Assembly: GCA_016178045.1 (NCBI GenBank)
Contig: JACOUE010000034.1
Location: forward strand, 147 to 64,146
Source: Chloroflexota bacterium
GTDB lineage: Bacteria > Chloroflexota > Dehalococcoidia > SM23-28-2 > JACOUE01
Reading direction: 5' to 3'
DNA: 64,000 bases
This document shows, piece after piece, positions 3,902 to 48,305 of the stretch (the first letter of the stretch is position 1; each line of letters begins with the position of its first letter). The position numbers and the translations under genes were made by a program. Under the pieces are notes generated by a model, which did no database searches, was not told the DNA's origin, and saw only the letters and a list, made by a program, of their open reading frames with translations.

Positions 3902-4034
3902 AGAGGCCCACCTCCTCCGGCCTGCACTTGGGGGGGGGCGATTCACGAGGGACGCGGGGACATTCCCTCTGGGCTGGCTCCTGGAGACTCTGGCCGCACC
4001 CCTTCTTGCCGGCGACCCCCGTCAGGATGCAGCT

Positions 4035-4062
4035 ATTATAGTTGACTGCCAGAAGATGTCAA
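4035..4062 (-). promoter_or_regulatory. Sigma70-type promoter for the S8 peptidase gene
   Basis: Minus strand reads CTTGACAT-N16-TATAAT (-35 at 4062-4057, -10 at 4040-4035), about 130 nt upstream of GTG 3901. Confidence 0.5.
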
Positions 4063-4157
4063 GTAGTTTCGGCGCTTTAGAGTTAGTTTTTCGGAAAAAG
4101 CGCGGGAAACCTGGGCCCATGTCGCTGGCGCTGGCTTGTTCTGACTTGAGGAGGCGG

Positions 4158-4481
4158 TTAGCGGTAATCCTCGCGGGGTGGGGAAAAGACGTCGATGAAG
4201 ACGCTGCGCTCGAGGGCGGTGACCTCGTGGGGGACGCCGGAAGGGACGAGCCAGCAGTCGCCGGGGGAGAGGTCGCGCGTCTCTTCGCCGAGGCGGAAGC
4301 GGCCGCGGCCGGAGATGAGGTAGCCGGTCTGCTCGTGAGGGTGAGTGTGGAGGGGGACGACGGCGCCCCGGTCCATGGTCACCTCGATGAGCATGAGGCG
4401 CTCGCCATCGGTCATGGTGCGCCGAAAGACGCCGGGGAGCATCTCGACAGGGGTGGCGGCGTCGCGGGACGTGAGGGGCAT
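4158..4481 (-). CDS. Cupin domain protein
   Basis: 107 aa with cupin motifs (PLHTHPHEQTGYLISG ... PSGVPHEV). GGGGAGG SD 6 nt upstream of the ATG. Confidence 0.8.
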   Translation of the reverse strand: MPLTSRDAATPVEMLPGVFRRTMTDGERLMLIEVTMDRGAVVPLHTHPHEQTGYLISGRGRFRLGEETRDLSPGDCWLVPSGVPHEVTALERSVFIDVFSPPREDYR

Positions 4482-4493
4482 GGCGTACCTCCC

Positions 4494-4829
4494 CTAGGAG
4501 CGAAGGTCGATATCAACGAAGGCGACGTTGCGGGGCACGGCGTCGTGGTCGTGGGGGGTGACGAGAACGCCGTGATTGCGCTTCTCCCCCTGGATCACCC
4601 AGTCGAGCTGGTAGAAGCGCTCGACGACGGAGGGGTCGTCGGCCTCGTAGACGGTGACCAGGAGCCCGTCGCCGTCCTTCGTCACCTCATCGGAGACGAA
4701 GGAGACGACGCGGCGGAAGCCTAAGGCCTTGAGGGCCTCGCGGCCAGCCTCGAACCCCTGCTTGAGCTGCCGGGCGAACTCTTCCCGCTTTCCGGGCAGG
4801 ATCCTGGCGACGTGGACGCAGGCGACCAT
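4494..4829 (-). CDS. Hypothetical small alpha/beta protein (function unknown)
   Basis: 111-aa ORF with GC3-rich codon usage. AAAGGATGG SD upstream of the ATG; packed tightly between the cupin gene and purE. Confidence 0.65.
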   Translation of the reverse strand: MVACVHVARILPGKREEFARQLKQGFEAGREALKALGFRRVVSFVSDEVTKDGDGLLVTVYEADDPSVVERFYQLDWVIQGEKRNHGVLVTPHDHDAVPRNVAFVDIDLRS

Positions 4830-9471: not shown

Positions 9472-12400
9472 TCAGTCGATGGCCCCACTCGAGGTCAGGG
9501 CCTGAATCCTGTCCGCCAGCGCTTTCATCCCCAGTTCGGAGGCTGTCTGTTGAGCCTGATCGAGGAGCGCCAGCGCCTTATCCCTGTCGGCGGGCTCTCC
9601 CCTGGCGAGGAGCATGCGGGCGTAGTCGTGCTGGGTATGGGCCAGCCAGGGCCGGGCGCCCATCCGGGTGTGCATCTCCAGGGCGTCATGGAAATGGCGG
9701 GCCGCGTCTTTCCAGCGGCGCATGACTGTGGCGAGGAGGCCTAGGTAGCGACCGGCGGAGCCACAGCATACCGAACCGTAGCCCACCTGGAAGTTTCGCT
9801 TGGCATAGGGCAGTGCGAGGCCGTAAAGTATGGCCGCGCGGTGGGTATCGCCAAGATAGGCCGAGACTTCGGAAAGGCCGGCGAGGCAGGCCGTCCATAG
9901 AAAGTCCCGGGGCAGGTCAGCGAAGCGGTTCGTTGCCAGGTGTTCAAACTCAGCCCGCGCCTCCGCCTCGCGGCCAGTTTCGCAGTACATGAGGGCTGTG
10001 GCAGCCCGCACCAGGGCCATCGCGGGAAACTGCTGGGCAAAGCTCTTTTGGACCGCTTCCAGTTCCCCCAGGCGGCCCTGCTCTCGGCGCAGAAAGAATA
10101 GGACGATGGCGAAGTTCGCGGCCGCATTCTGCGCTCCCATCCGCTGTCCAATAGCCAGGGCCTCCTGGGCTAGTCGCTCGGTGTCCTCAAATCGACCCAC
10201 GAGCAAGGCGCGCATCGCCTGAAGTATGGCCGTTACCCGCAGAAAATGGGGCTGCCGCAGCTCCTGTGCCAGACTTGAATAGGCTTCAATTTCCACATCG
10301 ACCGCCTCGATATCGCCTAGCTCGAGGAGGTCTATGAGCCGCCAGTGGCGCCACTCAAGGGCCATCTCCTTATCGCCGGCATCCTCAGCCAGTTGAAAAA
10401 GCTCGGTGGCGGATTCGAGGCGTTCGTCAAGACTCTCCGGGTCCAGGTATACGAAGCGCCTGGCGTTCCACGTGTAAGCCAGGGCTGTGGGATCGCCCAC
10501 GCGTCGTGCCATATCAACCGCCTGCTGGCTGAGAGACAAGCCCCGCCCCAATGCCTCCGTCTGAAACCCAGCAGGAGCGGTAAGAGCTATGGCCAGGCGG
10601 GCCATGACCCTCGCCCGGAGGGCGCTATCGGTGTCTTCCAGAGCATCCAATGCCTCCTCGAGCAGGCCCACCTGGCCTTCTTCGTCCCTTCCGGCTACTG
10701 CGCCTGTTCTGCCAAAGTCCAAAGCAGCTCGCGCCAGAAGATTCGGCGATCCCAGTTTTCTCGCAGCCTGCGCCGCCTGCTCGCAACTCTCCATCGCTTG
10801 CCGAGTCTCGCCCGCCCTCCTTTGGGCCTCAGCGAGGGTCAGCAGGAGCTCGCAGCGCTCGGCCTCGTCCGGCTTCTCCTTGAGGTCGAGGGCCCCGAGC
10901 GCCATTGCGTAGTGGCGGCTCGCCTCCTGGTAGGCGACCTGGGAGAGGGCGCGCCGGCCGGCCCGGGCGGCGTAATCGACGGCCTTCTCCACGTCGCCGC
11001 CGGGGGCGGCCTGGCAGAAGTGGTTGGCCAGCTCCGCGACGTGTGGCTCCGGGTCGGCGGCGTAGAGGGCCTCCAGCGCCTCGGCCACGCGGCGGTGGAG
11101 TTGGCGGCGGCGGGGGGCGCTCAACCCCTGGTAGAGGGTCTCCTGGATGAGAGGATGGGCGAAGACGTAGCCGTCACCCTGCTCGCGGACGACGTGGGCC
11201 GACAGTGCCTCGTCGAGCAGGTCAAGGAGGGAGTCCTCATCCTGACCCGTCGCTGCGGCAACCTTGAGAAGGGTGAGGTCGCGCCCCAGGACGGACGAGT
11301 AGGCGAGGACGCGGTTGGCCTCTTCGCCGAGACGGTCGAGGCGGCGGGTGATGACCTGTCGCACGCCGTCGGGGATGGCCCAGCCGCCCACGTCGGCCTG
11401 CGGGTCGGCGAGGTTGCGCCCCTGCTCCTCGAGGTGGCGGACCAGCTCCTCGATGAAGAAGGGGTTACCTTCGGCGGCGGCAAAGAGCGCATCCACGATA
11501 TGCGGCACGGGAACGTGGCCGACGACGTCTTCCATGAGGGCCGCCGTCTCCTCCCGGCCGAACGGACGCAGGGTGATCTGGCCGTCGGTGCGCTGGCGGG
11601 CCATCTCGGCCAGGAGCCGGGCCATAGGGTGCTTCGCGTCGACCTCTACGTCGCGGAAGGTACCCACGGTCAAGAGCGGTCCTTCCGCCAAGCGACCGGC
11701 CAGGTGCTGGAGGAGGAGAAGGCTGGAGTCGTCGGCCCAGTGCAGGTCGTCGAGGACCAGCATGAGAGGCGTCTTGGCGGCGGCGGTGAGAAGCAGTTCG
11801 CTGACGGACTGGAACACCTGATAGCGTTCGCTTTCCGCGCTAAGAGCGGGCGGCTCCGGCGTCGCAGGCAGCATCTGCCGCAGCTCGGGAAGCAGCTTCG
11901 CCAGGTAAGCAGCGTTGCCGTTCAGCTCCGCGAGCAGCTCCTCGGGAGAGCGGCTGCGGACGTAAGGGCCCAGCGCCTGCGTGAAGGGCAGGTACGGAGG
12001 CATTCCCTCGGTGTCATAGGCGTGGCCGCTGAGGACCTGGAAGCCGCGGTCGGTGGCGTAGATCGCCAGCTCGGAGACCAGGCGCGTCTTCCCCACCCCG
12101 GGCTCGCCGGCCACGAGCACAAGACTGCCCTGCCCGCGGCCGGCCATCTCCAGGCGCTGCCGCAGCTTGGCGGCCTCCTCCTGGCGACCGACGAAGCGGG
12201 CGAGCCGGGGTCGGACGCTGACGCTGTCATGCCGGCGCGCCTCAAACAGGGGGACCGGTTCGGCGAAGCCCTTGAGCGCCCGCTCGCCGAGGGACGTGAA
12301 CTCTGTCCCGGGGGTGCCGCGGGCGAGCAGCCGCGTCACCTCCGAGACGAGGACCTGGCCGCCCTCGGCTTCAGCCTCGATGCGGGCGGCGAGGTTGACG

Positions 12401-12744
12401 TCGCTGCCGAAGAGGTCGTCTCCCTCCGCTACGGGCTCGCCGGTGTGGAGGCCGATGCGAACGCTGAGCTCGGAGTACCGCCCCTCGGCGTGCTGCGCGG
12501 CGATGGCCTGCTGGACGGCGGCGGCGCACTCCACCCCCTGCCGGGCCGATTGGAACGCGACCATGAAGCCGTCGCCCGTACCTTTGACGACCGTCCCGCT
12601 GAAGCGCTCGAACTCCTGTCGCAGGATGCGGTCGTGGGCCCGGCGGAGGGCCTGGGCCGCCTCGTCGCCGAGGCGATCGCCCAGGGCGGTCGACCCGACG
12701 AGGTCGGTGAACATGACGGTAAGAGTGCCCGAGACGGTACTCAT
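9472..12744 (-). CDS. Class III adenylate/guanylate cyclase domain fused to a AAA/STAND ATPase and a TPR-like C-terminus
   Basis: N-terminal LTVMFTDLVGSTAL...GDGFMVAF cyclase blocks; Walker A GEPGVGKTRL; about 500 aa of helical-repeat C-terminus. No HTH seen. Confidence 0.85.
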   Translation of the reverse strand: MSTVSGTLTVMFTDLVGSTALGDRLGDEAAQALRRAHDRILRQEFERFSGTVVKGTGDGFMVAFQSARQGVECAAAVQQAIAAQHAEGRYSELSVRIGLHTGEPVAEGDDLFGSDVNLAARIEAEAEGGQVLVSEVTRLLARGTPGTEFTSLGERALKGFAEPVPLFEARRHDSVSVRPRLARFVGRQEEAAKLRQRLEMAGRGQGSLVLVAGEPGVGKTRLVSELAIYATDRGFQVLSGHAYDTEGMPPYLPFTQALGPYVRSRSPEELLAELNGNAAYLAKLLPELRQMLPATPEPPALSAESERYQVFQSVSELLLTAAAKTPLMLVLDDLHWADDSSLLLLQHLAGRLAEGPLLTVGTFRDVEVDAKHPMARLLAEMARQRTDGQITLRPFGREETAALMEDVVGHVPVPHIVDALFAAAEGNPFFIEELVRHLEEQGRNLADPQADVGGWAIPDGVRQVITRRLDRLGEEANRVLAYSSVLGRDLTLLKVAAATGQDEDSLLDLLDEALSAHVVREQGDGYVFAHPLIQETLYQGLSAPRRRQLHRRVAEALEALYAADPEPHVAELANHFCQAAPGGDVEKAVDYAARAGRRALSQVAYQEASRHYAMALGALDLKEKPDEAERCELLLTLAEAQRRAGETRQAMESCEQAAQAARKLGSPNLLARAALDFGRTGAVAGRDEEGQVGLLEEALDALEDTDSALRARVMARLAIALTAPAGFQTEALGRGLSLSQQAVDMARRVGDPTALAYTWNARRFVYLDPESLDERLESATELFQLAEDAGDKEMALEWRHWRLIDLLELGDIEAVDVEIEAYSSLAQELRQPHFLRVTAILQAMRALLVGRFEDTERLAQEALAIGQRMGAQNAAANFAIVLFFLRREQGRLGELEAVQKSFAQQFPAMALVRAATALMYCETGREAEARAEFEHLATNRFADLPRDFLWTACLAGLSEVSAYLGDTHRAAILYGLALPYAKRNFQVGYGSVCCGSAGRYLGLLATVMRRWKDAARHFHDALEMHTRMGARPWLAHTQHDYARMLLARGEPADRDKALALLDQAQQTASELGMKALADRIQALTSSGAID

Positions 12745-18251: not shown

Positions 18252-19334
18252 ATGCTCCATCACCCAAGCAAACATCTGCTGTTCGTGGTCGGCCTGACGG
18301 CCCTGTTAGCTGCCTGCAGCTCCGGGGGGAGCCCTCAGGTCGGGGGCGAACTGCGCATCTTCAATTGGGACGACTACTTCGCTCCAACCACGCTGGCCGA
18401 CTTTGAGAAGGAATTCGGCATCAAGGTGCATCTTGACACGTTCGATGACGAGGCGGAGCTGCTTTCGACCATAAGCTCTGACCCGTCGCGATACGACCTG
18501 TTCATTGGCTCGGACGAGCTCATCGGCGAAATGGTCGAACTGCGCCTCGTGGCCGAACTCGATCTGGACAACATCCCGAACCTTGCGAATATCGATACAG
18601 AGTTTCTCAATCTGCCGGGCAACCCGGGCAACCGGTACGGCATCCCCTACGACTGGGGCACCACAGGTGTCATGTACAACAGGACATGCATCGAGCCCCA
18701 GGTGAAGAGCTGGGCGCTGCTGCAGGATACCCGCCTTGCTGGCCAGGTGGCGATGGACACCGATCCGGCCGTCGTCATCGGCGCTACCCTGAAATACCTC
18801 GGCTATCCACTGAATAGTGACGATCCGGGCGAGTTGAACGAGGCTGTGGGAATCCTCAAGGACCAGATTAAGAAGGTGCAGCTAAGGTTTATCCCCGCCT
18901 ACGACGCCAGGCAGATGATGAAGTCCGGAGAGCTGTGTGCCACCCAGGCGTACAACGGTGACGCGGCCTACGAAATGGCAGAGAACGAAGACTTCGCGTT
19001 CTTTGTGCCGAAGGAAGGCTCAGACATCTATTTTGACATGATGGCAATACCGCGCGACGCCAAGAACAAGGCCGGGGCAGAGCTCTTCATGAACTACGTG
19101 CTGCGACCAGAAGTCCATGCGGCTATTAGCAACTATACAGGCTACGCCACACCCAACCGCGCCGCCAGGGAGCAGGGCCTAATCGATCAGGCATACCTCT
19201 CAGACCCGACGATCTATCCCGACACCGACCTCCTGGAGCCGTGGGTCATCTTCGACGGCCAGCGAAGGGCTCTGTGGAACAGAGCGTGGGCTGAAGTGCA
19301 GTCCGTGGCTCCGAAGTCCCAGGTTTCGAATTGA
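18252..19334 (+). CDS. PotD/PotF-family polyamine-binding lipoprotein (NspS-like), with no cognate permease or ATPase genes nearby
   Basis: Start trimmed to ATG 18252 (MLHHPSKHLLFVVGLTALLAACSSGG lipobox). Spermidine/putrescine SBP-like body. Confidence 0.85.
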   Translation: MLHHPSKHLLFVVGLTALLAACSSGGSPQVGGELRIFNWDDYFAPTTLADFEKEFGIKVHLDTFDDEAELLSTISSDPSRYDLFIGSDELIGEMVELRLVAELDLDNIPNLANIDTEFLNLPGNPGNRYGIPYDWGTTGVMYNRTCIEPQVKSWALLQDTRLAGQVAMDTDPAVVIGATLKYLGYPLNSDDPGELNEAVGILKDQIKKVQLRFIPAYDARQMMKSGELCATQAYNGDAAYEMAENEDFAFFVPKEGSDIYFDMMAIPRDAKNKAGAELFMNYVLRPEVHAAISNYTGYATPNRAAREQGLIDQAYLSDPTIYPDTDLLEPWVIFDGQRRALWNRAWAEVQSVAPKSQVSN

Positions 19335-21787
19335 AGAAGATTGCCTTCCGGGCCATCGGGCTGGCCGTTGGGAAGACGGTTCGGGGGAGGGTGGCGCGGA
19401 TCATCCTTGTTGTGGGCCTGTTACCCCTCCTCGGGATAGGCGCCTACCTTGCCCTGTCGCTCCGCGACACATTGGGCGGCACCGCCAACCACAGCCTCAA
19501 GAATTATTCGCTTGTCGAGGCGGCGGCAGTGGCCAACGTTGTGCGCCAAGCCGAAGCCAACATTAAACTCCTGGCCTCCAACCCCGTCCTGGAGTCATCG
19601 GCCGCCACCCGAGAGGAAAAGCGCACGCAACTTCTGGAGGCCGAGGAATTCTTCGCGGCCTTCGAGGACATCACCCTCATCGATCCGTCGGGCAGGGTTA
19701 TCGACTCAACGACTTGGGTTTTCGAGGGCAGCTGGCTGGCCAATGCCGCCTTCCAGCAGGCCCTAGCCGGGCAGTCCGGGATGTCTGAGGCTCGCGTGGC
19801 CCGATCACCGGCCCGCCTCGTCGTAGAATTCGCCGCCCCGGTGGGACAACGTAATCAGGTGGCAGCCGTAGTTGTCGGCCGGATGAACATGGAGCGCGTC
19901 TGGGAGATCCTCGACCCCGTCGCCATCGGCGAATCCGGCTTTCTGGCGGCCTTCGACAGGCATGGCAACCTGCTCGCCTACCCTGATAAGGGTTTGCTCC
20001 TCACCAGGCTGGACGGGTACCCGGACGCCGCGGCCTCGGCGGGGTTGACCTCTCTCGACGTCCGGAGCCCGGATGGGGATAGGCTCGTCGGCGAGTTAGC
20101 GCCGGTGGGGTTTCTCGGCTGGCAGGTGGCGGCGCTGCAGGAAAGATCAGAGGCATACGCAATCGCCAACGATATCGTGCAGAAGATAGGCATCCTGGCA
20201 GCGGTGGTGCTCATCCTCACGGTCTTCGCCTCGATCCTTTTCTCCCGCGCTGTAACGCAGCCCATCCGCACCCTCTCTGCCGGCATGCACAAGATCGCAG
20301 AGGGCAGCCTGGATCAGAGAGTGCCGCCGGCCGGTCTCAAGGAGATTGATGGGCTGTCAGCCGCGTTCAATTCCATGGCCGTTAACCTGGAGGCGCGAAC
20401 GGCCGAGCAGACGCGGGCGGAGGAGCAGATCAAATATCTCGCCTACCATGACCCGCTCACCGGGCTGCCCAACCGGGCGCTACTCAAGGACCGTCTGACC
20501 GTTGCGCTTGCGCAGGCCCGTCGCAAGAGGGGGATGCTGGCCGTTATGTTCGTCGATCTGGACCGATTCAAGCTGGTCAACGACACGGTGGGCCACGCGA
20601 TGGGCGATCAACTGCTGCGAAAGTTCGCGGAACGTTTGACACGAGTTGCCCGCGAAGGCGACAGCCTCGCCCGGGTGGGGGGCGACGAGTTCACAGTGTT
20701 GTTGCCGGAGATCTCCGTTTCGGAAGACGCCGATCTGGTCGCTCAGAGAATACTTGAGGCCTCACGCGCGCCGGTCCTGCTGGCGGGGCACGAGTTCAGC
20801 GTCACCGCCAGCATCGGAATCGCCGTATACCCAGGCCACGGCGAAGATGCCGTCGCCCTCCTGCGGAATGCCGATGCAGCGATGTACCGGGCAAAAGAAG
20901 AGGGCCGGAACACGTTCAAGATCTTCGAGCCCGTGATGAACGCCCGCCTGCTGGCGCGAGTGGCTCTGGAGGAAGACCTGAGGCACGCGCTGGAGCGCGC
21001 CGAGTTCCAGCTGCACTACCAGCCGCAGGTGGAGATCCAGACCGGGACTATCGTCGGTGTGGAAGCTCTGTTGCGCTGGCAACACCCGGAACGGGGATCC
21101 GTCCCGCCCGACGAGTTCATCTCACTGGCCGAAGAGACAGGCTTGATCATCCCCATTGGACAATGGGTACTGCGCACCGCTTGCGCCCAGAGCAAAGCCT
21201 GGCAGAATGCAGGTCTGGCGCCCATGTCAATGGCGGTCAACCTCTCGCCCCGTCAGTTCCAGGAGCCGGGCCTGATCAGAGGCATCGCTCGCGTCCTACA
21301 GGAGACAGGTCTTCCCGCCCAGCTGCTGGAACTAGAGATAACCGAGAGTACAGCGATGCGAGATGTCGAGTTCACCATCGCCATGGTGGAAGAGCTGCGA
21401 GCGATGGGGGTGCGCGTCTCAATCGATGATTTCGGCACCGGCTATTCTTCGCTGGGATACCTGAAGCGACTTCCTGTGGATTCGGTGAAGATTGACCGTT
21501 CATTCGTTAACGACGTGACCGCAGACGGCGATGACGCCGCCATTGTGGCGGCCATCGTCGGGCTGGCGCAGACGATGAACCTGAACACAATCGCCGAGGG
21601 AGTGGAGACCGAGGAGCAGCTCGCCTTCCTGAAGAACCTCAACTGCGACTTTGTCCAGGGATTCCTATTCAGTAAGGCGGTTCCGGCCGAGACCTTCGCG
21701 AAGATGCTGGCCGAGCAGCGGCAGCTTCAGCCCTTAGAGACGGGCGTTGGTCCAGCGCCTGCTGCCCAAACCGCGGGTGCCCTCTAG
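19331..21787 (+). CDS. Membrane sensor diguanylate cyclase/phosphodiesterase (periplasmic sensor domain-HAMP-GGDEF-EAL)
   Basis: TTG start overlaps the upstream stop (TTGA). Two TMs flank an approximately 250-aa extracytoplasmic domain. HAMP; RVGGDEFTVLL; EALLRW, DDFGTGYSS. Confidence 0.9.
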   Translation: MKKIAFRAIGLAVGKTVRGRVARIILVVGLLPLLGIGAYLALSLRDTLGGTANHSLKNYSLVEAAAVANVVRQAEANIKLLASNPVLESSAATREEKRTQLLEAEEFFAAFEDITLIDPSGRVIDSTTWVFEGSWLANAAFQQALAGQSGMSEARVARSPARLVVEFAAPVGQRNQVAAVVVGRMNMERVWEILDPVAIGESGFLAAFDRHGNLLAYPDKGLLLTRLDGYPDAAASAGLTSLDVRSPDGDRLVGELAPVGFLGWQVAALQERSEAYAIANDIVQKIGILAAVVLILTVFASILFSRAVTQPIRTLSAGMHKIAEGSLDQRVPPAGLKEIDGLSAAFNSMAVNLEARTAEQTRAEEQIKYLAYHDPLTGLPNRALLKDRLTVALAQARRKRGMLAVMFVDLDRFKLVNDTVGHAMGDQLLRKFAERLTRVAREGDSLARVGGDEFTVLLPEISVSEDADLVAQRILEASRAPVLLAGHEFSVTASIGIAVYPGHGEDAVALLRNADAAMYRAKEEGRNTFKIFEPVMNARLLARVALEEDLRHALERAEFQLHYQPQVEIQTGTIVGVEALLRWQHPERGSVPPDEFISLAEETGLIIPIGQWVLRTACAQSKAWQNAGLAPMSMAVNLSPRQFQEPGLIRGIARVLQETGLPAQLLELEITESTAMRDVEFTIAMVEELRAMGVRVSIDDFGTGYSSLGYLKRLPVDSVKIDRSFVNDVTADGDDAAIVAAIVGLAQTMNLNTIAEGVETEEQLAFLKNLNCDFVQGFLFSKAVPAETFAKMLAEQRQLQPLETGVGPAPAAQTAGAL

Positions 21788-21803: not shown

Positions 21804-21879
21804 TGGCAGGGGCGGCAGGACTCGAACCCGCGACCTGCGGTTTTGGAGACCGCTGCTCTACCAGCTGAGCTACGCCCCT
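21804..21879 (-). tRNA. tRNA-Trp (anticodon CCA), CCA encoded
   Basis: Minus strand AGGGGCGTAGCTCAGCTGGTAGAGCA-GCGGT-CTCCAAA-ACCGC-AGGTC-GCGGGTTCGAGTCCTGC-CGCCCCTGCCA. Confidence 0.9.
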
Positions 21880-22018
21880 GCCCGCGGCCGGCAGACCTGC
21901 CTCGGCTTACCCCATCGCAGGCTGAAGCCTGAGCTTCGCGTTGGGAGCAGGCCGGCCGGTCCGGCCGAATCCAGTATAGCAGACAGCTTTGACGCGATGA
22001 ACGGCAGGCGGGCCCCCG

Positions 22019-22750
22019 CTAGTCGAGGGCGGCCAGCGCCTTGCCAGGGTCGTTGGTGACGATGCCGTCGATCCCCAGGGCGGCGAGCCGGCGGACCTCC
22101 TCCGCCGTGTCGACGGTCCAAGCGTAGAGCGAGAGCGCGCGGCGGCGGGCGTGGCGGACCAGATCTTCGCTGATGCCCTGGTGGTAGACGCTCACGCCCT
22201 GGAGGCCGAGCTGGACTGCCAGCCGGGCCAGCGAGGGCCACGAGGCGACGCCCTCATGGCTGACAAGGAGGGCGCACGGCAGGCGCGGCTCCGCCCGCCG
22301 CATGGACGACAGCACCTGCGACAGGAACGACCACACGATGACGTCGTCCAGGGCGTCCGACTCAGCGATGACGCGGGCGACCTGCTCCTCGATGCCGGGC
22401 TCCTTGATCTCGGCGACGAGCAGCGCCTTCCCCCTGGTCAGGGCCAGCGCCCCGGCCAGGGTGGGGACGCGCTCGCCGCGGAAGGCGCCGTCGAAGGCTT
22501 TGGCGCCGGCGTCCAGCCGCTGGATCTGGTCGAGGGTGAAGGAGGAGACGGGGCCGCTGCCGTCGGTGGTGCGGTCGACGGTGGGGTCGTGGATGAGGAC
22601 GGGCACGCCGTCGGCGCTGGCGTGTACGTCGACCTCCACGGCGTCGGCGCCGAGCTCAAGGGCGGCGCGGACTCCGGCGAGGGTGTTCTCGGGGGCTAGG
22701 CCCGCGCAGGCGGCGTGGGAGATGATGAGGGACCGGGGCCGGTGGGCCAT
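22019..22750 (-). CDS. Glycerophosphodiester phosphodiesterase (cytoplasmic, UgpQ-like)
   Basis: ISHAACAGLAPENTLAG...EVDVHASADGVPVLIHD...: GDPD family blocks, no signal peptide. Confidence 0.85.
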   Translation of the reverse strand: MAHRPRSLIISHAACAGLAPENTLAGVRAALELGADAVEVDVHASADGVPVLIHDPTVDRTTDGSGPVSSFTLDQIQRLDAGAKAFDGAFRGERVPTLAGALALTRGKALLVAEIKEPGIEEQVARVIAESDALDDVIVWSFLSQVLSSMRRAEPRLPCALLVSHEGVASWPSLARLAVQLGLQGVSVYHQGISEDLVRHARRRALSLYAWTVDTAEEVRRLAALGIDGIVTNDPGKALAALD

Positions 22751-22758
22751 ATTGGGGG

Positions 22759-23391
22759 CTAGTCGGCGGAGACGGACTCGAAGGAGGGCCGAAGGCGGTC
22801 GCGCTTCTCGATCACCTCTGCGGACAGTTCGCGGGCCACGACGTGGAGCTCATAGCGAAGGGGAGAAGTCAGGCGTCGGTCGTGCTTGAGGTTGATGCGG
22901 CAGGCGATGCGGTGGAGCTGCTGCGCCATGTACCGCACGGAAACGCGCCAGTCGATGACGGGGTCGCAGACCTCGGGGATGTTGCGGTCCTGGCAGAAAG
23001 TGGCGGCGGCGCGCTCGATGTCGTCCTCCAGGCGGCAGGCGACTAGGTGGTGGGCCAGGCGGTCGGTGTCGCCGTTGTAAGGGCCGTGGCCGTTGCCCAG
23101 GAACGTGAGCACGCGGGCGAGGGTGTGGCGGAGGCCACCGTCGCCGTTGCCGTTGCGGTGGTCGAGCTCGAGGTTGAGGCGCCGCTGCTGGGCGAGGAAG
23201 AGGGTGAGGAGGTCGCGCTCCTGGTCTGCCAGGGGCAGGCCCTGGGGGAGCAGGCCGACGATCTGCCTGGCCCAGGACCGGACGCGGCTCTCCAGCTGAT
23301 CTACTCGGCGAAGGACGTAACGTAGCAAGCGCTCGTCCTCAATCTCGACGATGTCGTCGTCTGGAAACGGGTATGCGCGGTCGCCTAACAC
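22759..23391 (-). CDS. Hypothetical protein
   Basis: 210-aa ORF with coding-like composition; no recognisable motif; GTG start. Confidence 0.55.
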   Translation of the reverse strand: MLGDRAYPFPDDDIVEIEDERLLRYVLRRVDQLESRVRSWARQIVGLLPQGLPLADQERDLLTLFLAQQRRLNLELDHRNGNGDGGLRHTLARVLTFLGNGHGPYNGDTDRLAHHLVACRLEDDIERAAATFCQDRNIPEVCDPVIDWRVSVRYMAQQLHRIACRINLKHDRRLTSPLRYELHVVARELSAEVIEKRDRLRPSFESVSAD

Positions 23392-23508
23392 TAAGGGAGA
23401 GGTCCTCCATAGATAAAGAACAAAAAGGCATGGGCCCTGTTACATTGGCCGCGCCTATGGAGGAAAAATCGGTGAAAGGCGTCGTGCTACAGACGGGAAA
23501 TTGATACA

Positions 23509-24399
23509 ATGAGCGGAGCCTCCGCGCCCGTCGTTATGGTCGATAGCTTCAAGTTCCTGCCTGCCGCCCTGGCCGGCTACTACCAGAGCCTCCCGGTCCA
23601 GCGTGAGGAGCCGATCCCATGGGCCCCGCTGGCCAAGCCCCTCAGCGAGTGCCGGTTCGCTCTGGTCACCACGGCCGGGGTGTACGCTAAAGGGCTGGAG
23701 CCGCCTTTCGACACGGAGCGGGAGGAGAAGGAGCCTCTGTGGGGCGACCCGACATATCGTCGCATCCCCAGCGACATAACGCAAGACCGGGTCGGGGCTT
23801 CACACCTCCACATCAACAACCGGGACATCCTCGCCGACATCAACGTCGTGCTGCCCCTCGGCCGGTTTCTGGAGCTGGAGGAGGAGGGCGTTATCGGTTC
23901 CCTGGCGCAGACTCACTACTCGTTCATGGGGTACCAGATGGACACGCGGGCCTGGCGGGAGCAGTACGGGCCGGAGGTAGCGGGCCTCCTGAAGGACGAG
24001 GGCGCTGACTGCGTGTTCCTGACCCCGGCCTGACCGGACTGCTGCCGCACCGTGCCGGTGCTGGCGCGGACCTTCGAGGGAGCGGGCCTGAGCACCGTTC
24101 TGGTGACGATGATGCCGTACTGGGCCGACCGGGTGGGCGTGCCGCGGACGGTGGGGGTGGAGTTCCCCTACGGCCATCCCCTGGGGATGCCGGACGACCG
24201 CGAGACGCAGATGCGCGTCATACGGGAGGCGCTGACGCTGCTGGAGGAGGCGGAGGGCCCGGGCGAGAGCCGCAACCTGGACCTCGTCTGGCCGCAGGAT
24301 CCGGACACTGCGAAACGCGACTGGCAGCCGCCGGTGCCCTCGCCCATCATCCGGATGCTGCGGGAGCGGGCGCGGGGCCGGCGGGAGGCCGCGGGCTGA
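23509..24399 (+). CDS. GrdB/PrdB-family (glycine/sarcosine/betaine/D-proline reductase component B-like) selenoprotein; TGA 24031-24033 read as selenocysteine
   Basis: Track ORFs 23509-24033 and 24052-24399 share a frame. The junction reads FLTPA-U-PDCCRTVPVLARTFEGAGLSTVLV. The family block DINVVLPLGRFLELEEEGVIGSLA..YSFMGY lies upstream. Confidence 0.75.
24043..24066 (+). promoter_or_regulatory. Candidate SECIS hairpin
   Basis: tgcc-gcacc-GTGCC-ggtgc-t-ggcg: a 9-bp stem with one bulged U and a GU-containing apical loop, starting 10 nt after the TGA. Confidence 0.5.
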
Positions 24400-24420
24400 C
24401 GGCAGGAGGAGCTTCGTCAA

Positions 24421-25703
<1,283 letters not shown>

Positions 25704-25716
<13 letters not shown>

Positions 25717-27119
25717 CGCATCCGGGCGGCGTTCCGCCCGGCGATGCGGCCGAAGACGGCGCCCCGGATGACGGAGGTGGCCCCCGGGTAGTTGTCGTAG
25801 AACAACTCCCCCATCAGCTCCCCCGCCGCGAAGAGCCCGGGTATCGGCTTTCCCGATTCGTGGATGACGCGGGCCTCGCGGTCCACCTTCAGGCCGCCGA
25901 AGGTGAAGGTGATGCCGCCGGTCACCGGCAGGGCGACGAAGGGCGGCGCCTCGACGGGGAGGGCCCAGTTGCTCTTGGGCGGCGAGGCGCCCCTGGTGCT
26001 CTTGCCGTCCAGGCGGTCGAAGTCCAGCTCGCCGGGCTGGACGGCGGTGTTGAAACGGCGGACCGTCTCGGCCAGCGAGCGCGGCGGCAGGCCCAGGGCC
26101 CCGGCCAGGCCCTCGATGGTGTCGCTCATTAGCGGCGGGCCGACGGGGCGCCAGCCGCGCTGGAACTCGGGGCGGGAGTACGCCTGCTGGTCGAAGATGC
26201 AGAACGCCTTCCCGCCGGCCCGCTCGATGATCGCCCTGGCGAACTTGACGTAGGTGTGGTCGCGGAAGTCCTCGCCCTCGTCCAGGAAGCGCTGGCCCTG
26301 CGCATCGACGATGATCCCCATCTGGAAGTTGTAGAGGGCGGTGACGCCGCACTCGACCGGCAGGGAGCGGGCGTCGATGACGGCGGCGTGGTAGCCGTCC
26401 CACTGCCCGGCCGGCCGGGCGCCAACGGCGAGGGCTATGGCGATGCCGTCGCCGGTGTCGTGGCGGGAGCCGCGGAGGACGACCTCCTCGGCGGTGGGGC
26501 CGAGGTGGGCAGCGCGCATCTCGCGGCTGGCCTGGAAGCCGCCGCTGGCCAGCACCACGGCCGGGGAGCGGACCTCCACGGGGCCTTCGGGGGAGACGGC
26601 GCGGAGGCCGGCGATGCGCCCTCCGTCCACGAGCAGCTCGCGGGCGGGCGTCTCGTAGGAGACGGCGACGCCTATTCCTTCGGCGCGGCGGAAGAGGAGG
26701 TCGACCAGCCCCTGGCCCCCGGCGACGGGGGTGCGCCGATAGCCGGCGGTGTGGGGGTAGCCGCTCTCCCACTCCACGCCCAGGGCGGTCAGCCAGTCGA
26801 CGGTCTCCGCGGCGCGACCGACGAGCGCGTCCACGAGGTCGGGGCTGGCGCGGCCACCGGAGATACGGATGAGGTCGCGGCGGAACTCCTCGGGCGTGTA
26901 GGCGCGGTCGCAGTACTGGTCGGCATCGTGGGGGAAGCGGACCTGGGCGTCGGCGAAGCGGGTATTGCCGCCGCGCTCGGCGCGGGGCGCCTTCTCCAGG
27001 AGGACGGCGGAGGCGCCCTCCCCGGCGGCGGTGATGGCGGCGGCGAGGCCGGCGATGCCACCGCCCACGGCCGCTACGTCGAAGTGGAAGGCGTCGGTGG
27101 GGCCGTGCTCCGCGGTCAA
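25704..27119 (-). CDS. FAD-dependent oxidoreductase (fumarate reductase / tricarballylate dehydrogenase TcuA-like flavoprotein)
   Basis: VAAVGGGIAGLAAAITAA dinucleotide fold, ERGGNTRF, C-terminal GLFAAGE motif; 471 aa. Confidence 0.8.
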
Positions 27120-42847: not shown

Positions 42848-43762
42848 CTATTTGGTGACCAGACTGTCGTAGACCTGAATGCCGGCCGGTCCCAGCAGGA
42901 CGATGAACAGCGAAGGGAGCAGGAACAGGACCAGCGGGAACGTCATCCAGATGGGTATTCGCTGGGCGGTCTGCTCCACGCGCTGGCGCCGCTTAATGCG
43001 GATCTGGTCCGACTGGACGCGCAGGACATCGGCGATGCTGGAGCCGGTGACCTCGGCATGGATGATAGCGTTGACGAAGGTGACGACCTCGGACACGCCG
43101 GTGCGCTCTCCCACGTCGAGCAGGGCGTCGCGGCGTGACTGGCCCATGGCCATCTCGCGCAGGGCCTGCCTCAGCTCGTCGCCGAAGGGGCCCGCCAGCT
43201 TCTCGGTCACCTTGGCGAAGGCGGCGTCCAGACCGAGGCCGGCCTCCACACAGGTGCTCACCAGGTCGAAGGCGTTGGGGAGGGACTTCAGGATTTCGTT
43301 CTGGCGCTTGCCCACGCGACGGGCGAGCCAGAAGTAGGGGAGGTAGAAGCCCAAGCCGATCAGCGCCAGGAGCACCATGAGGATGGTGGGGCTAAAGCTG
43401 GCCCCGGCCATGGCGACGAACGCCAGGAAGAAAGTAGGGAAGGCGAAGGCGCTAACTGCCATGACCATGAGGAAACCGGCCAGGGAAAACGGCTGTCCTG
43501 CCAGGGTGAGCAGGTGGCGGATCCGGGCCACGTATGCCGTCGGGAGCATCTTGGCCACGATGCTGCCCATACTTTCCAGCAAGGGCATGACGATGCGCTC
43601 CACGAACGGCTGCCCGCGGTCGATGACGACGTCATCGTCGAATGCGGAGGCGAGTCTCCTGACCCGCGCCTCCACCGGGTTCTGGCGGCTGCGGCCGGCG
43701 AAGGCCATGCAGACGCAGAACACGGCCGCGAATGTGATGAAGGCTGCTGCTCCTGCCAGCAT
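42848..43762 (-). CDS. tadC: Flp pilus assembly membrane protein TadC
   Basis: T2SSF-type polytopic protein, last gene of the operon. Confidence 0.8.
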   Translation of the reverse strand: MLAGAAAFITFAAVFCVCMAFAGRSRQNPVEARVRRLASAFDDDVVIDRGQPFVERIVMPLLESMGSIVAKMLPTAYVARIRHLLTLAGQPFSLAGFLMVMAVSAFAFPTFFLAFVAMAGASFSPTILMVLLALIGLGFYLPYFWLARRVGKRQNEILKSLPNAFDLVSTCVEAGLGLDAAFAKVTEKLAGPFGDELRQALREMAMGQSRRDALLDVGERTGVSEVVTFVNAIIHAEVTGSSIADVLRVQSDQIRIKRRQRVEQTAQRIPIWMTFPLVLFLLPSLFIVLLGPAGIQVYDSLVTK

Positions 43763-43771
43763 GATGTCCTC

Positions 43772-44719
43772 CTATACCTCGATAGCGGTAATGCGGCGCG
43801 TGATGTACAGCCCGGTTATGTTCAGCCCGGCGGCCAGAATGATGAGGAACCGGCCGACCCCGGTGGTGAAGAGGAGCCTCATGTACTCCGGGTCGGTCAG
43901 GTAGAAGAGGCCGACGACCAACAGGGGCATGAGCCCGACGATCCAACCGGACAGCCGCTTCTGGGCGGTGAGGGTGTTGATTTCGCCCTTGATGCGGATC
44001 CGCTCGCGGATGGTGTGGGCCACGTTGTCCAGCACCTCGGCCAGGTTGCTGCCGACGGCGCGCTGGATGAGGACGGCGGTGATCACCATGTCGAGATCGT
44101 AGCTGCCGACTCGCTCGCCCATGGCGATGATGGCGTCCTCGAGGGTGGCACCCATGTGGGTGTCGCGGATGAGGCGCTTGAGCTCCACGGATATGGGGGG
44201 CGGGATCTGCTCGGCCGCCAGGTCAAAGGCCTGCAAGAGGCCGAAGCCGGCTTTGAGGGAGCTGGACACCATGGTCAGCATCTCCTCGAGCTGGTCGTTG
44301 AGCTTGTTGATCTGCTGCTGGATGCGCATCCGCACGTAGAGAGGAGGCAGCATGAACCCCACGACTCCAAAGACTATGGCCAGCAGCGCGGCAAAGGCCG
44401 ACGTACCGACCAGGGCAAAGCCGACGATCATGAACGCTACCGCCATCAGGCCGCGCAGCGCCAGGTACTCGTGCAGCTTCAGGGCGACGCCGGCGCGGTC
44501 GAGGTCGCGCAGGGTCCGTTCGGCCCAAACGCTGCCCTGGCGGCGCAGGGCCAGAGGGACTCCGCCCTCAGTCTGCGCCCGCTGGCCGTAGGCCTGGAGC
44601 TGGTCCATGCGCTCCTGCGCCCGGGAACGGCCGCGCGCGGTAGCCTGGTAGAACCCGATAGTGACGAGCAGAACGGCGAGGAAAGCGCACCCCGCTGCTG
44701 CTATGTTTACCAAGTCCAT
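43772..44719 (-). CDS. tadB: Flp pilus assembly membrane protein TadB
   Basis: Start trimmed to ATG 44719 (AGGAGG SD; 4 nt after the cpaF stop). T2SSF-type. Confidence 0.8.
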   Translation of the reverse strand: MDLVNIAAAGCAFLAVLLVTIGFYQATARGRSRAQERMDQLQAYGQRAQTEGGVPLALRRQGSVWAERTLRDLDRAGVALKLHEYLALRGLMAVAFMIVGFALVGTSAFAALLAIVFGVVGFMLPPLYVRMRIQQQINKLNDQLEEMLTMVSSSLKAGFGLLQAFDLAAEQIPPPISVELKRLIRDTHMGATLEDAIIAMGERVGSYDLDMVITAVLIQRAVGSNLAEVLDNVAHTIRERIRIKGEINTLTAQKRLSGWIVGLMPLLVVGLFYLTDPEYMRLLFTTGVGRFLIILAAGLNITGLYITRRITAIEV

Positions 44720-44723
44720 GGCC

Positions 44724-46076
44724 TTACCTCCTGGCTCCGATGAATATGTCTTCGGGGAAGGTGATCCCCATCTCCTCCAGCCGCGACAGGAAGCGCGGCT
44801 GGATGCCCGTCGGCAGGGCCTCGCCCAGGACGCGGCCGTTGCTGTCGACGCCCTGATGCACGAAGCGAAAGAGCTCCTGCATGGTGACGATGGCGCCCTC
44901 CATGCCGGAGATCTCGCTGACGCTGATGATCTTGCGTGATCCATCGACGAAGCGGGCGAGCTGGATGACCAGGTGCAGGGCGGAAGCCATCTGCTCGCGG
45001 ATGGCCCGCACCGGCAGGTCGAATCCGGCCATGAGGATCATGTTCTCGGCACGCATGAGGGCGTCGCGAGGGGAGTTGGCGTGGACGGTGGTGAGGGAGC
45101 CTTCGTGGCCGGTGTTCATGGCCTGCATCATGTCGAAGGCCTCAGAGCCGCGCACCTCGCCCACGATGATGCGGTCGGGGCGCATGCGGAGGGCGTTGCG
45201 GACCAGGTCACGCTGCGTGACGTCGTGCTTGCCCTCCAGGTTCGCCGGCCTGGCCTCAAGGCTCACCACGTGAGGCTGCTGGAGCTTCAGCTCAGCCGGG
45301 TCCTCGATGGTGACGACACGCTCCGTGGGCGGGATGAACCCGGAGACGGCGTTGAGGAGTGTGGTCTTACCGGTACCGCTACCGCCGGAGATGAGGATGT
45401 TGAGGCGCCCCTTGACGCAGACGCTCAGGAACTCGCCCAGCTCCTCGCTCAGGGTGCCGGTGGCCATGAGGTCCTGGATTGTGTACTTGTCCGCGCGGAA
45501 CTTCCGGATGGTGATCGTGGGGCTCTTGGGGGCCACCGGAGGGATGATGATGTTGACCCGGGAGCCGTCGGCGAGACGGGCGTCGACGTAGGGCGAGGAC
45601 TCGTCCACGCGGCGGCCCAGCGGCGAGATGATCCGCTCGGCGACGCGCATGATGTGCCTGTGGTCGCGGAAGCGGAGGTTGCTGAGGTAGATGATGCCGT
45701 CCCGCTCGTAGTAGACGAGGTCGGGGGCGTTGACCATCACCTCGGAGAGTGAGGGGTCTCTGACCAGGCCCTCAATAGGGCCGAGGCCCAGGACCTCGTC
45801 CGCCACGTGGCCGACGATGGTGTCCCGCTCCAGCCCCACGACCTTGGGGGCCAGCTCCTGCATGATGGTGCGGGCGGCCTTCTCCACCGCCTCGCGGGCC
45901 TTGTCCGGCTCCAGCTTTTCGATGGCCGTGGCGTCCAGGTCCTCGATGAGTTTTTGGTGGATCTGGAAGACCAGTTCCCACTGGCTGTCGTCCAGGCCGT
46001 CGTTGTGCTGCTGCGGCTGGCCCTTGTCCCCGTTACCGGGGGTGTTGTCTGCGAACTTTTGCTGCCATGTAGCCAT
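44724..46076 (-). CDS. cpaF: Flp pilus assembly ATPase CpaF/TadA
   Basis: Walker [14 protein letters not shown], Asp box, Walker B (RIIVGEVRG), His box ([12 protein letters not shown]). Confidence 0.92.
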
Positions 46077-46101
46077 GACTTACCACCTTCCCTGCCGATT
46101 C

Positions 46102-47331: not shown

Positions 47332-47367
47332 AGCTAGGTCACCTCATTCCTCTCCTGCCTTCATCAC

Positions 47368-48252: not shown

Positions 48253-48305
48253 TTCTACCTACCTCCTTTTTGGTTTTTCTTTTGGCTGTCTTTTGGTTTG
48301 TTCGC

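What the first reader, a model, noticed from the sequence alone, without database searches (positions are those of the whole stretch)
23509..24399. In-frame TGA joins two track ORFs into a short GrdB/PrdB-family selenoprotein with no reductase partners nearby
ORFs 23509-24033 and 24052-24399 are in the same frame, separated only by TGA (24031-24033) and six sense codons.

Read through, the junction is ..DCVFLTPA-U-PDCCRTVPVLARTFEGAGLSTVLV... This resembles the Sec-containing active-site segment of glycine/sarcosine/betaine/D-proline reductase component B proteins (..LT..-U-..C.. followed by a hydrophobic strand). The upstream half carries the family-like block DINVVLPLGRFLELEEEGVIGSLA..YSFMGY.

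Ten nt after the TGA there is a 9-bp stem with a bulged U and a GUGCC loop (24043-24066), which is the right place for a bacterial SECIS.

The predicted protein (about 296 aa) is much shorter than canonical GrdB. No grdA/C/D/E or prdA genes are in the window, and it sits 21 nt upstream of a GH1 beta-glucosidase. Its substrate and partners are therefore unknown.
Basis: partly seen in the sequence, partly recalled or inferred. Interest (0 to 1): 0.72.

Follow-up and report, generated by a model that had tools for sequence, protein, structure and literature searches.

The report
PrdB-like selenoprotein gene split by UGA
The two adjacent reading frames are one gene for a selenocysteine-containing protein of the GrdB/PrdB reductase family; this stand-alone form is common in Chloroflexota, is routinely annotated as two genes, and its family is known although its substrate is not.

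Summary
ORFs 23509-24033 and 24052-24399 are in one frame, joined by TGA 24031-24033.

**Evidence that the TGA encodes selenocysteine**
- All 80 related loci fetched from species-representative genomes have TGA at this exact column, never TAA or TAG. Nearly all are Chloroflexota.
- The protein sequence continues in frame and stays conserved after the TGA (U-P-[D/E]-C...VPVLAR).
- In more distant full-length relatives the column is Cys in 47 of 66, in a C-P-x-C motif.
- A hairpin 16-17 nt after the UGA (window 24050-24069) forms in 77 of 80 sequences. It shows compensatory changes and constrained synonymous sites, as expected of a bacterial SECIS.

It forms completely only in the window.

**Family placement**
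- The protein passes Pfam GRDB.
- It falls below the NCBIfam cut-offs for PrdB (163 vs 300 bits) and for GrdB.
- No prdA, grdA/E or other conserved partner lies in the window or beside the 79 relatives whose flanks were scanned.

It is therefore PrdB-like, not demonstrably D-proline reductase. "PrdB" selenoproteins with a UxxC motif have been catalogued since 2005. I call this a new member of a known kind with unknown substrate. Sec machinery could not be checked beyond the window.

The parts
23509..24399 (+). Complete read-through coding sequence of the PrdB-like selenoprotein: 296 residues, Sec at residue 175. The start may instead be ATG 23536, which matches homologue N-termini (M-x-VDSFK).
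   Evidence: Translation. Pfam GRDB 46.3 bits vs cut-off 22. TIGR04483 PrdB 162.9 bits over residues 37-254. tblastn matches in 80 loci span query residues ~9-296, across the TGA.
24031..24033 (+). In-frame TGA read as selenocysteine (U175), first residue of the U-P-D-C motif.
   Evidence: TGA at this column in the window and all 80 related loci, while true terminators of the same genes are TAG 41, TGA 28, TAA 11. The column is Cys in 47 of 66 full-length relatives.
24040..24042 (+). Codon for Cys178, the conserved partner cysteine of the UxxC motif. Cys179, which follows, is variable in relatives (C/A/S/T).
   Evidence: U-P-[D/E]-C is conserved across the loci. C-P-x-C occurs in Cys-form relatives. 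In the AlphaFold model of the Cys homologue P0002 the two positions lie between strand 160-164 and helix 170-183.
24050..24069 (+). SECIS-like hairpin. In the window it is an 8-bp stem (24050-24057 with 24062-24069) and a GUGC loop. The family-wide core is a 6-bp stem (24051-24056 with 24063-24068) and a CGUGCU loop, starting 17 nt after the UGA.
   Evidence: Minimum-free-energy fold. RNAalifold consensus. The core forms in 77 of 80 sequences. Pair 23:36 is UA 45, UG 19, CG 16, CA 0; pair 21:38 is CG 72, UA 6. Covariation score 0.183 vs 0.120 +/- 0.009 in shuffles, 0 of 500 as high. The Ala codon in the 3' arm is GCA in 45 of 80 vs 11% elsewhere in these genes, and never GCC or GCT.
24397..24399 (+). 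True terminator (TGA) of the selenoprotein gene.
   Evidence: Homology to relatives ends here. UGA is an ordinary stop in this genome: predicted window genes end in TAG 24, TGA 18, TAA 12.
24421..25716 (+). Context only: GH1 beta-glucosidase gene 21 nt downstream on the same strand. It is probably co-transcribed in this clade, but it is not a family-wide partner.
   Evidence: Pfam Glyco_hydro_1 1.1e-96. The same order is seen in close relatives, but GH1 is the immediate neighbour in only 6 of 134 neighbour ORFs scanned, drawn from 79 loci.

Best explanation
Region 23509-24399 is a single gene for a selenocysteine-containing, stand-alone member of the GrdB/PrdB (Pfam GRDB) family.

**Shown here.** The in-frame UGA sits at the family's conserved redox Cys column and is universally conserved among close relatives. 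It is followed by a conserved hairpin with compensatory changes.

**Inferred from the established bacterial Sec pathway.** During translation, SelB carrying Sec-tRNA(Sec) binds this hairpin as it lies 16-17 nt downstream of the UGA in the A site. It inserts Sec175 instead of terminating.

**Inferred from the motif, the model and the chemistry of PrdB/GrdB.** The protein is an alpha/beta enzyme whose U175-P-D-C178 motif sits at the end of a beta-strand and the start of a helix.
- The selenolate of Sec175 is the attacking nucleophile on the substrate.
- Cys178 resolves the adduct to a selenenylsulfide.
- An external dithiol donor, such as thioredoxin, regenerates the active site.

No pyruvoyl-subunit gene (prdA or grdE) accompanies it in the window or beside any relative examined. 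It most likely does not act as classical D-proline reductase. It more likely acts as a self-contained selenol/thiol reductase on an unidentified substrate.
For: - **Frame and junction:**
- **Family:** Pfam GRDB 4.7e-12, above its cut-off. The best NCBIfam model is PrdB TIGR04483, 8.1e-48, covering residues 37-254 against 19-227 of 238 model positions.
- **Distribution:** 283 species-representative genomes encode a relative. The 80 best loci are almost all Chloroflexota: Dehalococcoidia and Anaerolineae.
- **Stop codon identity:** TGA in all of them at the same column, whereas true terminators are mixed.
- **Downstream coding:** the downstream ORF is conserved as protein at 65-80% identity. It is called as a separate 103-123-aa ORF throughout public data. 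The upstream halves are called as ~166-aa ORFs.
- **Cys forms:** full-length Cys forms exist. P0002 reads TPG-C-PDCC, and the column is Cys in 47 of 66 representatives.
- **SECIS:**
- **Code:** UGA is otherwise a normal stop here.
- **Structure:** the model of P0002 has pLDDT 92.6 and pTM 0.92, with the CxxC between a strand and a helix.
- **Partners:** no conserved partner and no prd or grd genes in the window.
- **Literature:** Dehalococcoidia are among the most selenoprotein-rich bacteria in BSepDB (PMC13326102). UxxC is the recorded motif of PrdB and GrdB selenoproteins (PMC13188914, PMC1088965).
Against: - **Sec machinery:** no selA, selB, selD or tRNA-Sec in the window or within 10 kb of the homologues. 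Sec-decoding capacity of this particular genome is therefore unverified.
- **Hairpin stability:** the hairpin's folding energy is not exceptional for this G+C-rich sequence (z = -0.48). The support comes from conservation and covariation, and the stem also encodes conserved amino acids (N-V-P-V-L-A-R).
- **Catalytic cycle:** it is inferred by analogy. No substrate, reductant or structure of any family member is available: no PDB sequence hit and no Foldseek hit at E <= 1e-3.
- **Non-redox variants:** some relatives carry Asp, Ser or Gly at the Sec column (P0004). Not every family member is a redox enzyme.
- **Unlinked partner:** a partner encoded elsewhere in the genome cannot be excluded.
Confidence: 0.85

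Rival explanations
1. It is the selenoprotein subunit of a genuine D-proline reductase, or another amino-acid reductase. It would work with a PrdA/GrdE-like pyruvoyl subunit and electron-transfer proteins encoded elsewhere in the genome.
For: The best NCBIfam hit is the PrdB equivalog model, 8.1e-48. JGI pipelines name many fragments 'D-proline reductase (dithiol) PrdB'. The UxxC motif is shared with PrdB (PMC13188914).
Against: The score of 162.9 bits is far below the equivalog cut-off of 300. No GrdE/PrdA, GRDA or PrdC family appears among about 50 window ORFs. None appears among the 25 commonest families of 134 immediate neighbours drawn from 79 loci; those neighbours are heterogeneous, with 93 families in all. 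Known prd and grd genes are organised as operons (PMC13188914).
Confidence: 0.1
2. The TGA is a real stop. The locus is then two separate small genes, or a gene inactivated by a nonsense mutation.
For: Every public gene caller splits it into a ~166-174-aa ORF and a ~103-123-aa ORF. No Sec machinery is visible in the window.
Against: The stop is TGA in 80 of 80 loci, never TAA or TAG, at one exact column, across lineages whose proteins are only 53-70% identical to the window's. The six codons between the TGA and the first possible start of ORF2 are conserved as protein, including the CxxC-type Cys. Full-length homologues carry Cys there. A covarying hairpin follows.
Confidence: 0.03
3. UGA is decoded as a standard amino acid, either through a reassigned genetic code (Trp or Gly) or through near-cognate read-through (Cys or Trp), not as Sec.
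For: None specific. It would equally restore the reading frame.
Against: UGA terminates 18 of 54 predicted window genes, including this gene itself, and 28 of 80 homologues. No other coding-like in-frame TGA exists in the window. The position is the redox Cys column, and a conserved local hairpin is present, which global reassignment would not need.
Confidence: 0.02

Closest known systems
D-proline reductase selenoprotein PrdB (TIGR04483; Clostridium sticklandii / C. difficile type)
   Same: It is the best-scoring family model, aligned over almost its full length (residues 37-254 to model positions 19-227 of 238). The size class is similar. Sec is the first residue of a UxxC motif (PMC13188914). 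UGA is followed by a coding-region SECIS.
   Different: The score is 162.9 bits against an equivalog cut-off of 300. It has about 35-residue N-terminal and about 40-residue C-terminal extensions. No prdA, prdC or other prd genes lie nearby in any of the loci examined. The host is Chloroflexota rather than amino-acid-fermenting Clostridia.
Glycine/sarcosine/betaine reductase protein B selenoproteins (GrdB, GrdF, GrdH; Pfam PF07355, TIGR01917/01918)
   Same: It passes the Pfam GRDB gathering score. The Sec column is homologous. A redox UxxC is present.
   Different: Only the C-terminal part of the Pfam model is matched (positions 202-345 of 347). The ~200-residue N-terminal half of GrdB is absent. 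Scores of 40-57 bits are far below the cut-offs of 65-800. The motif is U-P-D-C-C, not UxxCxxC (PMC13188914). No grdA, grdE, grdC or grdD was found.
'Proline reductase PrdB' UxxC selenoproteins of selenoproteome surveys (Sargasso Sea, GOS; Anaeromyxobacter, Geobacter uraniireducens)
   Same: It is a PrdB-homologous UxxC selenoprotein found outside proline-fermenting organisms. That class is abundant in environmental data: 42 genes in the Sargasso Sea (PMC1088965) and 235 in GOS (PMC2398784). It also occurs in Deltaproteobacteria (PMC1794560).
   Different: I could not retrieve those sequences to test whether they are the same subfamily. Those papers give no function beyond the PrdB label.

Membership tests
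Bacterial selenoprotein gene (Sec-UGA with coding-region SECIS) | The in-frame UGA aligns with Cys in non-Sec homologues. | tested here: met
   The column is Cys in 47 of 66 full-length representatives, in a C-P-x-C motif. P0002 reads TPG-C-PDCC.
Bacterial selenoprotein gene (Sec-UGA with coding-region SECIS) | The UGA, not other stop codons, is conserved in orthologues, and conserved coding sequence continues in frame. | tested here: met
   TGA in 80 of 80 loci plus the window. True terminators are TAG 41, TGA 28, TAA 11. The downstream half is 65-80% identical as protein.
Bacterial selenoprotein gene (Sec-UGA with coding-region SECIS) | A stem-loop lies immediately downstream of the UGA, with a small apical loop containing G (PMC1088965). 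| tested here: met
   A 6-8-bp stem starts 16-17 nt after the UGA, with loop CGUGCU (GUGC in the window). The core stem forms completely in 77 of 80 sequences and shows compensatory changes. Covariation is 0.183 vs 0.120 +/- 0.009, with 0 of 500 shuffles as high. No dedicated bacterial SECIS predictor was available.
Bacterial selenoprotein gene (Sec-UGA with coding-region SECIS) | The genome encodes selA, selB, selC (tRNA-Sec) and selD. | not testable with these tools
   None is in the 64-kb window or within 10 kb of the 80 homologues. The rest of the genome is not available. Indirect support: Dehalococcoidia are listed among selenoprotein-rich bacteria (PMC13326102).
GrdB/PrdB superfamily (Pfam PF07355 GRDB) | The score is above the Pfam gathering threshold. 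| tested here: met
   46.3 bits vs 22, E = 4.7e-12.
D-proline reductase PrdB (NCBIfam TIGR04483, equivalog) | The score is above the curated equivalog cut-off. | tested here: not met
   162.9 bits vs 300.
D-proline reductase PrdB (NCBIfam TIGR04483, equivalog) | It is encoded with prdA (pyruvoyl proprotein) and other prd genes. | tested here: not met
   No such family is in the window. No conserved neighbour was found in 80 loci. Immediate neighbours fall in 93 different Pfam families, the commonest being Nitroreductase in 8 of 134 ORFs. An unlinked prdA cannot be excluded.
D-proline reductase PrdB (NCBIfam TIGR04483, equivalog) | Sec is in a UxxC motif. | tested here: met
   U175-P-D-C178. 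The motif is given for the family in PMC13188914.
Glycine/sarcosine/betaine reductase protein B (GrdB/GrdF/GrdH) | Full-length (~430 aa) architecture and a score above the cut-offs. | tested here: not met
   Only the C-terminal ~145 positions of the Pfam model are matched. TIGR01917 scores 40 vs 602, TIGR01918 47 vs 65, GrdH 57 vs 775 and GrdF 55 vs 800.
Glycine/sarcosine/betaine reductase protein B (GrdB/GrdF/GrdH) | It is encoded with grdA and grdE (and grdC/D). | tested here: not met
   These genes are absent from the window and from conserved neighbourhoods.

The most novel reading that the evidence does not exclude
The Chloroflexota clade of PrdB-like proteins may be a functionally distinct, self-contained selenoenzyme. 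It would use the PrdB scaffold and a UxxC selenol/thiol pair on a substrate other than D-proline, without any pyruvoyl partner. Its fold has no solved structural relative. The clade occurs in at least 283 species-representative genomes, is essentially always Sec-containing, and is always mis-split by annotation.
Probability: 0.5. Interest if true: 0.5.

Novelty: new member of a known kind. Interest (0 to 1): 0.3.

Why it matters
**Annotation.** The gene is mis-annotated essentially everywhere. Public gene calls give a ~166-aa GRDB-domain ORF followed by a ~103-123-aa 'hypothetical' ORF. The conserved TGA and hairpin described here would allow it to be merged and named correctly across Chloroflexota MAGs.

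**Biology.** The case shows a PrdB-type selenoprotein that is strongly retained as Sec in a phylum not known for Stickland fermentation, and that has no reductase partner nearby. The common label 'D-proline reductase PrdB' is therefore probably a functional over-call. What these orphan PrdB-like selenoproteins reduce is an open question of moderate size. Surveys have listed such proteins among the more abundant environmental selenoprotein families since 2005.

Tried and rejected
Rejected as the SECIS. All nine pairs form in 1 of 80 homologues and mean pairing is 50%.
- **Thermodynamic significance of the local fold.** Uninformative in this G+C-rich sequence (z = -0.48).
- **Rfam.** Only tRNAs were found in the window. 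That scan gave no match at the hairpin.
- **PDB by sequence.** Only chance-level hits, E >= 0.24.
- **Foldseek of a confident model against the PDB.** Nothing at E <= 1e-3. The best TM-scores were 0.2-0.36, to ferrochelatase and dihydroxy-acid dehydratase, which I do not interpret.
- **tblastn of E. coli SelA, SelB and SelD.** No hits against the window and all loci.
- **tRNA-Sec search.** None.
- **Other in-frame TGA selenoprotein candidates in the window.** None.
- **Neighbourhood clustering for a conserved partner.** None in more than 19 of 80 loci. The commonest are clade-level synteny: GDPD, an unknown ~200-aa ORF and GH1.
- **Contexts of more distant Cys- and Asp-form relatives.** No common theme.
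- **Literature searches for a function of orphan PrdB/GrdB-like proteins.** Nothing found. One cited paper (PMC12013261) was not held.

Full report
**Observation**

- An ATG-started ORF runs from 23509 to TGA 24031-24033.
- Six sense codons follow. A GTG-started ORF (24052-24399) continues in the same frame.
- Read through, the product has 296 residues with the junction ...DCVFLTPA-U-PDCCRTVPVLAR...
- A GH1 beta-glucosidase gene starts 21 nt after the terminator.
- Homologues start at M-x-VDSFK, so the real start may be ATG 23536.

**Family**

With Cys substituted for the stop, the protein passes Pfam GRDB (PF07355): 46.3 bits against a cut-off of 22. Only the C-terminal part of that model is matched, positions 202-345 of 347.

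In NCBIfam the best model is D-proline reductase PrdB (TIGR04483): 8.1e-48, residues 37-254 on model positions 19-227 of 238. However, 162.9 bits is far below the equivalog cut-off of 300. The GrdB, GrdF, GrdH and 'various selenoprotein B' models also fall below their cut-offs.

The protein therefore covers nearly the whole PrdB model, with short extensions at both ends. It is short only in comparison with GrdB.

**Is the TGA a selenocysteine codon?**

*Public protein calls.* A search of public proteins gave 686 relatives. Of the best 120, 115 are ~166-aa ORFs that end at exactly this column; the rest are the window's own 174-aa ORF and four full-length forms. A search with the C-terminal 121 residues gave 239 relatives. 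All of the best 120 are 102-123-aa ORFs, 65-80% identical to the query. So the gene is split in two by gene callers throughout public data.

*Genome loci.* A scan of one genome per species found relatives in 283 genomes.
- The 80 best loci are almost all Chloroflexota MAGs: Dehalococcoidia, Anaerolineae and 'Chloroflexia'. One is Binatia and one is Myxococcales.
- tblastn matches run across the stop, covering query residues ~9-296.
- In all 80 loci the codon at the aligned column is TGA. The genes' real terminators are TAG 41, TGA 28 and TAA 11.
- The residues that follow are strongly conserved: U-P-[D/E]-C-x-x-x-[V/A]-P-V-L-A-[R/Q].

*Sec/Cys column.* Full-length relatives with a sense codon exist. 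P0002 (52% identical) reads TPG-C-PDCC. An exhaustive phmmer search with P0002 against 1.84 billion cluster representatives found 1358 relatives at E <= 1e-3 and 515 at E <= 1e-10. In an alignment of 66 full-length ones the Sec column is Cys in 47, mostly as C-P-x-C. The rest are Ser, Gly, Asp and other residues.

*Genetic code.* UGA is otherwise an ordinary stop in this genome: 18 of 54 predicted genes end in it, including this gene. No other coding-like in-frame TGA occurs in the window.

**SECIS**

*Position.* The minimum-free-energy fold of 24031-24090 contains an 8-bp hairpin, 24050-24057 paired with 24062-24069, with loop GUGC. Its energy is not unusual for this composition (z = -0.48).

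*Conservation.* RNAalifold on 80 ungapped homologous segments returns the same helix. The 6-bp core is at positions 21-26 and 33-38, counted from the U of UGA. It forms in 77 of 80 sequences. The loop is CGUGCU in 62 and CGUGUU in 16.

*Covariation.*
- Pair 23:36 is U-A in 45 sequences, U-G in 19, C-G in 16 and never C-A.
- Pair 21:38 is C-G in 72 and U-A in 6.
- Fisher tests give p ~1.5e-7 for each pair. These ignore phylogeny.
- These changes couple an amino-acid change on one arm (Val/Ala, Arg/Gln/His) to a synonymous change on the other.

*Synonymous constraint.* The Ala codon in the 3' arm is GCA in 45 of 80 sequences, against 11% of Ala codons elsewhere in the same genes. It is never GCC or GCT, which make up half of Ala codons elsewhere.

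*Pair-counting tool.* It gives 91.4% paired cells, against 13-53% for slid partners. It finds 27 double-change cells against 10.8 +/- 2.3 expected. The covariation score is 0.183 against 0.120 +/- 0.009, with 0 of 500 shuffles as high.

*Comparison with known SECIS.* A small G-containing apical loop just downstream of the UGA is the feature the selenoproteome literature uses for bacterial SECIS (PMC1088965). From my own recollection of the bSECISearch model, a spacing of about 23 nt from the UGA to the loop is inside its accepted range.

All nine pairs form only in the window sequence.

**Context and partners**

Pfam scans of about 50 window ORFs found no GrdA, GrdE/PrdA, PrdC, SelA, SelB or SelD. 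tblastn with E. coli SelA, SelB and SelD found nothing in the window or in any locus. No tRNA-Sec is present.

The local gene order in the window is:
- GGDEF-EAL sensor (19331-21787)
- tRNA-Trp
- GDPD (22019-22750, minus strand)
- an unknown 210-aa ORF (22759-23391, minus strand)
- the selenoprotein gene
- GH1 (24421-25716)
- an FAD-binding oxidoreductase (25704-27119, minus strand)

The same order recurs in close relatives, but only at clade level. Across 80 loci no neighbour family occurs in more than 19. The 134 immediate-neighbour ORFs, drawn from 79 loci, fall into 93 Pfam families. The commonest are nitroreductase (8), Amidohydro_2 (7), GH1 (6) and alpha/beta hydrolase (5). Contexts of more distant Cys- and Asp-form relatives are equally varied.

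**Structure**

AlphaFold2 on the Cys homologue P0002, with a 55-row alignment, gives a confident alpha/beta model with pLDDT 92.6 and pTM 0.92. Cys166 (the Sec position) and Cys169 lie between strand 160-164 and helix 170-183. From general knowledge, this is the usual placement of a redox CxxC.

Foldseek against the PDB finds nothing at E <= 1e-3, and sequence search of the PDB finds nothing. On these searches the family has no solved structure.

**Mechanism (inferred)**

*Decoding.* SelB carrying Sec-tRNA(Sec) would bind the hairpin and decode UGA 24031 as Sec175.

*Catalysis.* By analogy with PrdB and GrdB and other UxxC selenoproteins:
- Sec175 is the nucleophile.
- Cys178 resolves the adduct to a selenenylsulfide.
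- A dithiol donor regenerates the site.

*Function.* No pyruvoyl partner gene accompanies the gene anywhere, and the PrdB equivalog threshold is missed by a wide margin. Classical D-proline reductase function is therefore unlikely, though an unlinked partner cannot be excluded.

**Comparison with what is known**

PrdB-type UxxC selenoproteins are long catalogued:
- 42 genes in the Sargasso Sea (PMC1088965).
- 235 genes in GOS, with 110 Cys homologues (PMC2398784).
- Members in Anaeromyxobacter and Geobacter (PMC1794560).
- 'D-proline reductase, TIGR04483, UxxC' in current reviews (PMC9312934, PMC13188914).

Dehalococcoidia appear among the most selenoprotein-rich bacteria in BSepDB (PMC13326102). 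I found no paper that addresses the function of partner-less PrdB-like proteins.

**Verdict**

It is a new member of a known kind, not a new kind.

The useful additions here are:
- the correct SECIS;
- the demonstration that the Sec form is universal in a large Chloroflexota clade;
- the evidence that the 'D-proline reductase' label is probably an over-call.

Sec-decoding capacity of this genome and the enzyme's substrate remain untested.

Noticed in passing
window 22759-23391 (-): A 210-aa ORF with strong coding signal (GC3 0.88) is divergently oriented 117 nt upstream of the selenoprotein gene. It has no Pfam match. It is conserved at the same position in 12 related loci as a ~200-aa ORF, and is also called with no Pfam hit in L086 and L087.
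   Followed up: partly
window 21804-25716; L001, L004-L006, L008-L010, L012-L015, L017, L086-L088: Clade-level synteny: tRNA-Trp(-), GDPD(-), unknown ~200-aa ORF(-), PrdB-like(+), GH1(+), often followed by an alpha/beta hydrolase. In relatives GH1 starts 4-22 nt after the selenoprotein stop, which suggests co-transcription. The link is absent in Anaerolineae relatives.
   Followed up: partly
window 24397-24423: The selenoprotein's terminator TGA and the GH1 ORF are in the same frame, seven codons apart. A naive scan for in-frame TGA flags this junction too. Homology ends at the TGA and the spacing differs in relatives, so it looks coincidental.
   Followed up: yes
alignment A4 columns 27-33 (window 24057-24063): Synonymous sites in the hairpin loop are nearly frozen across 80 genomes. 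The Val codon third base G30 and the Leu third base G33 are invariant, and the Pro third base is C27 in 78 of 80. The window is an exception at position 27 (G), which adds a G-U pair and shrinks the loop to GUGC.
   Followed up: partly
P0004 (loci L091-L093); P0003, P0068: A full-length relative carries Asp at the Sec column (TPV-D-ANCC), and this is confirmed in its DNA. Two other 'full-length' database proteins lack 10-25 residues around the Sec site. I did not determine whether those are real deletions or gene-model artefacts.
   Followed up: partly
L030, L043, L047, L052, L063, L074 and similar loci: In one Dehalococcoidia/'Chloroflexia' subclade the selenoprotein gene is flanked, on the same strand and with gaps of under 30 nt, by an Amidohydro_2 gene upstream and a ~170-aa nitroreductase-family gene downstream. 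This is a possible operon that could hint at a substrate.
   Followed up: partly
window 42848-49972 (-): A Tad/Flp-type pilus cluster: two T2SSF genes, a T2SSE ATPase, a response-regulator/ParA-like protein, and TadE/TadG-like proteins.
   Followed up: no
window 9472-12744 (-) and 19331-21787 (+): Two large signalling proteins: a 1090-aa adenylate/guanylate cyclase with an AAA_16 domain, and an 818-aa dCache-HAMP-GGDEF-EAL protein.
   Followed up: no
window 110-4724: Several long ORFs at the 5' end of the window (110-1126, 1913-2521, 2876-3874, 3234-4724) have no Pfam match. Which of the overlapping frames is real was not resolved.
   Followed up: no
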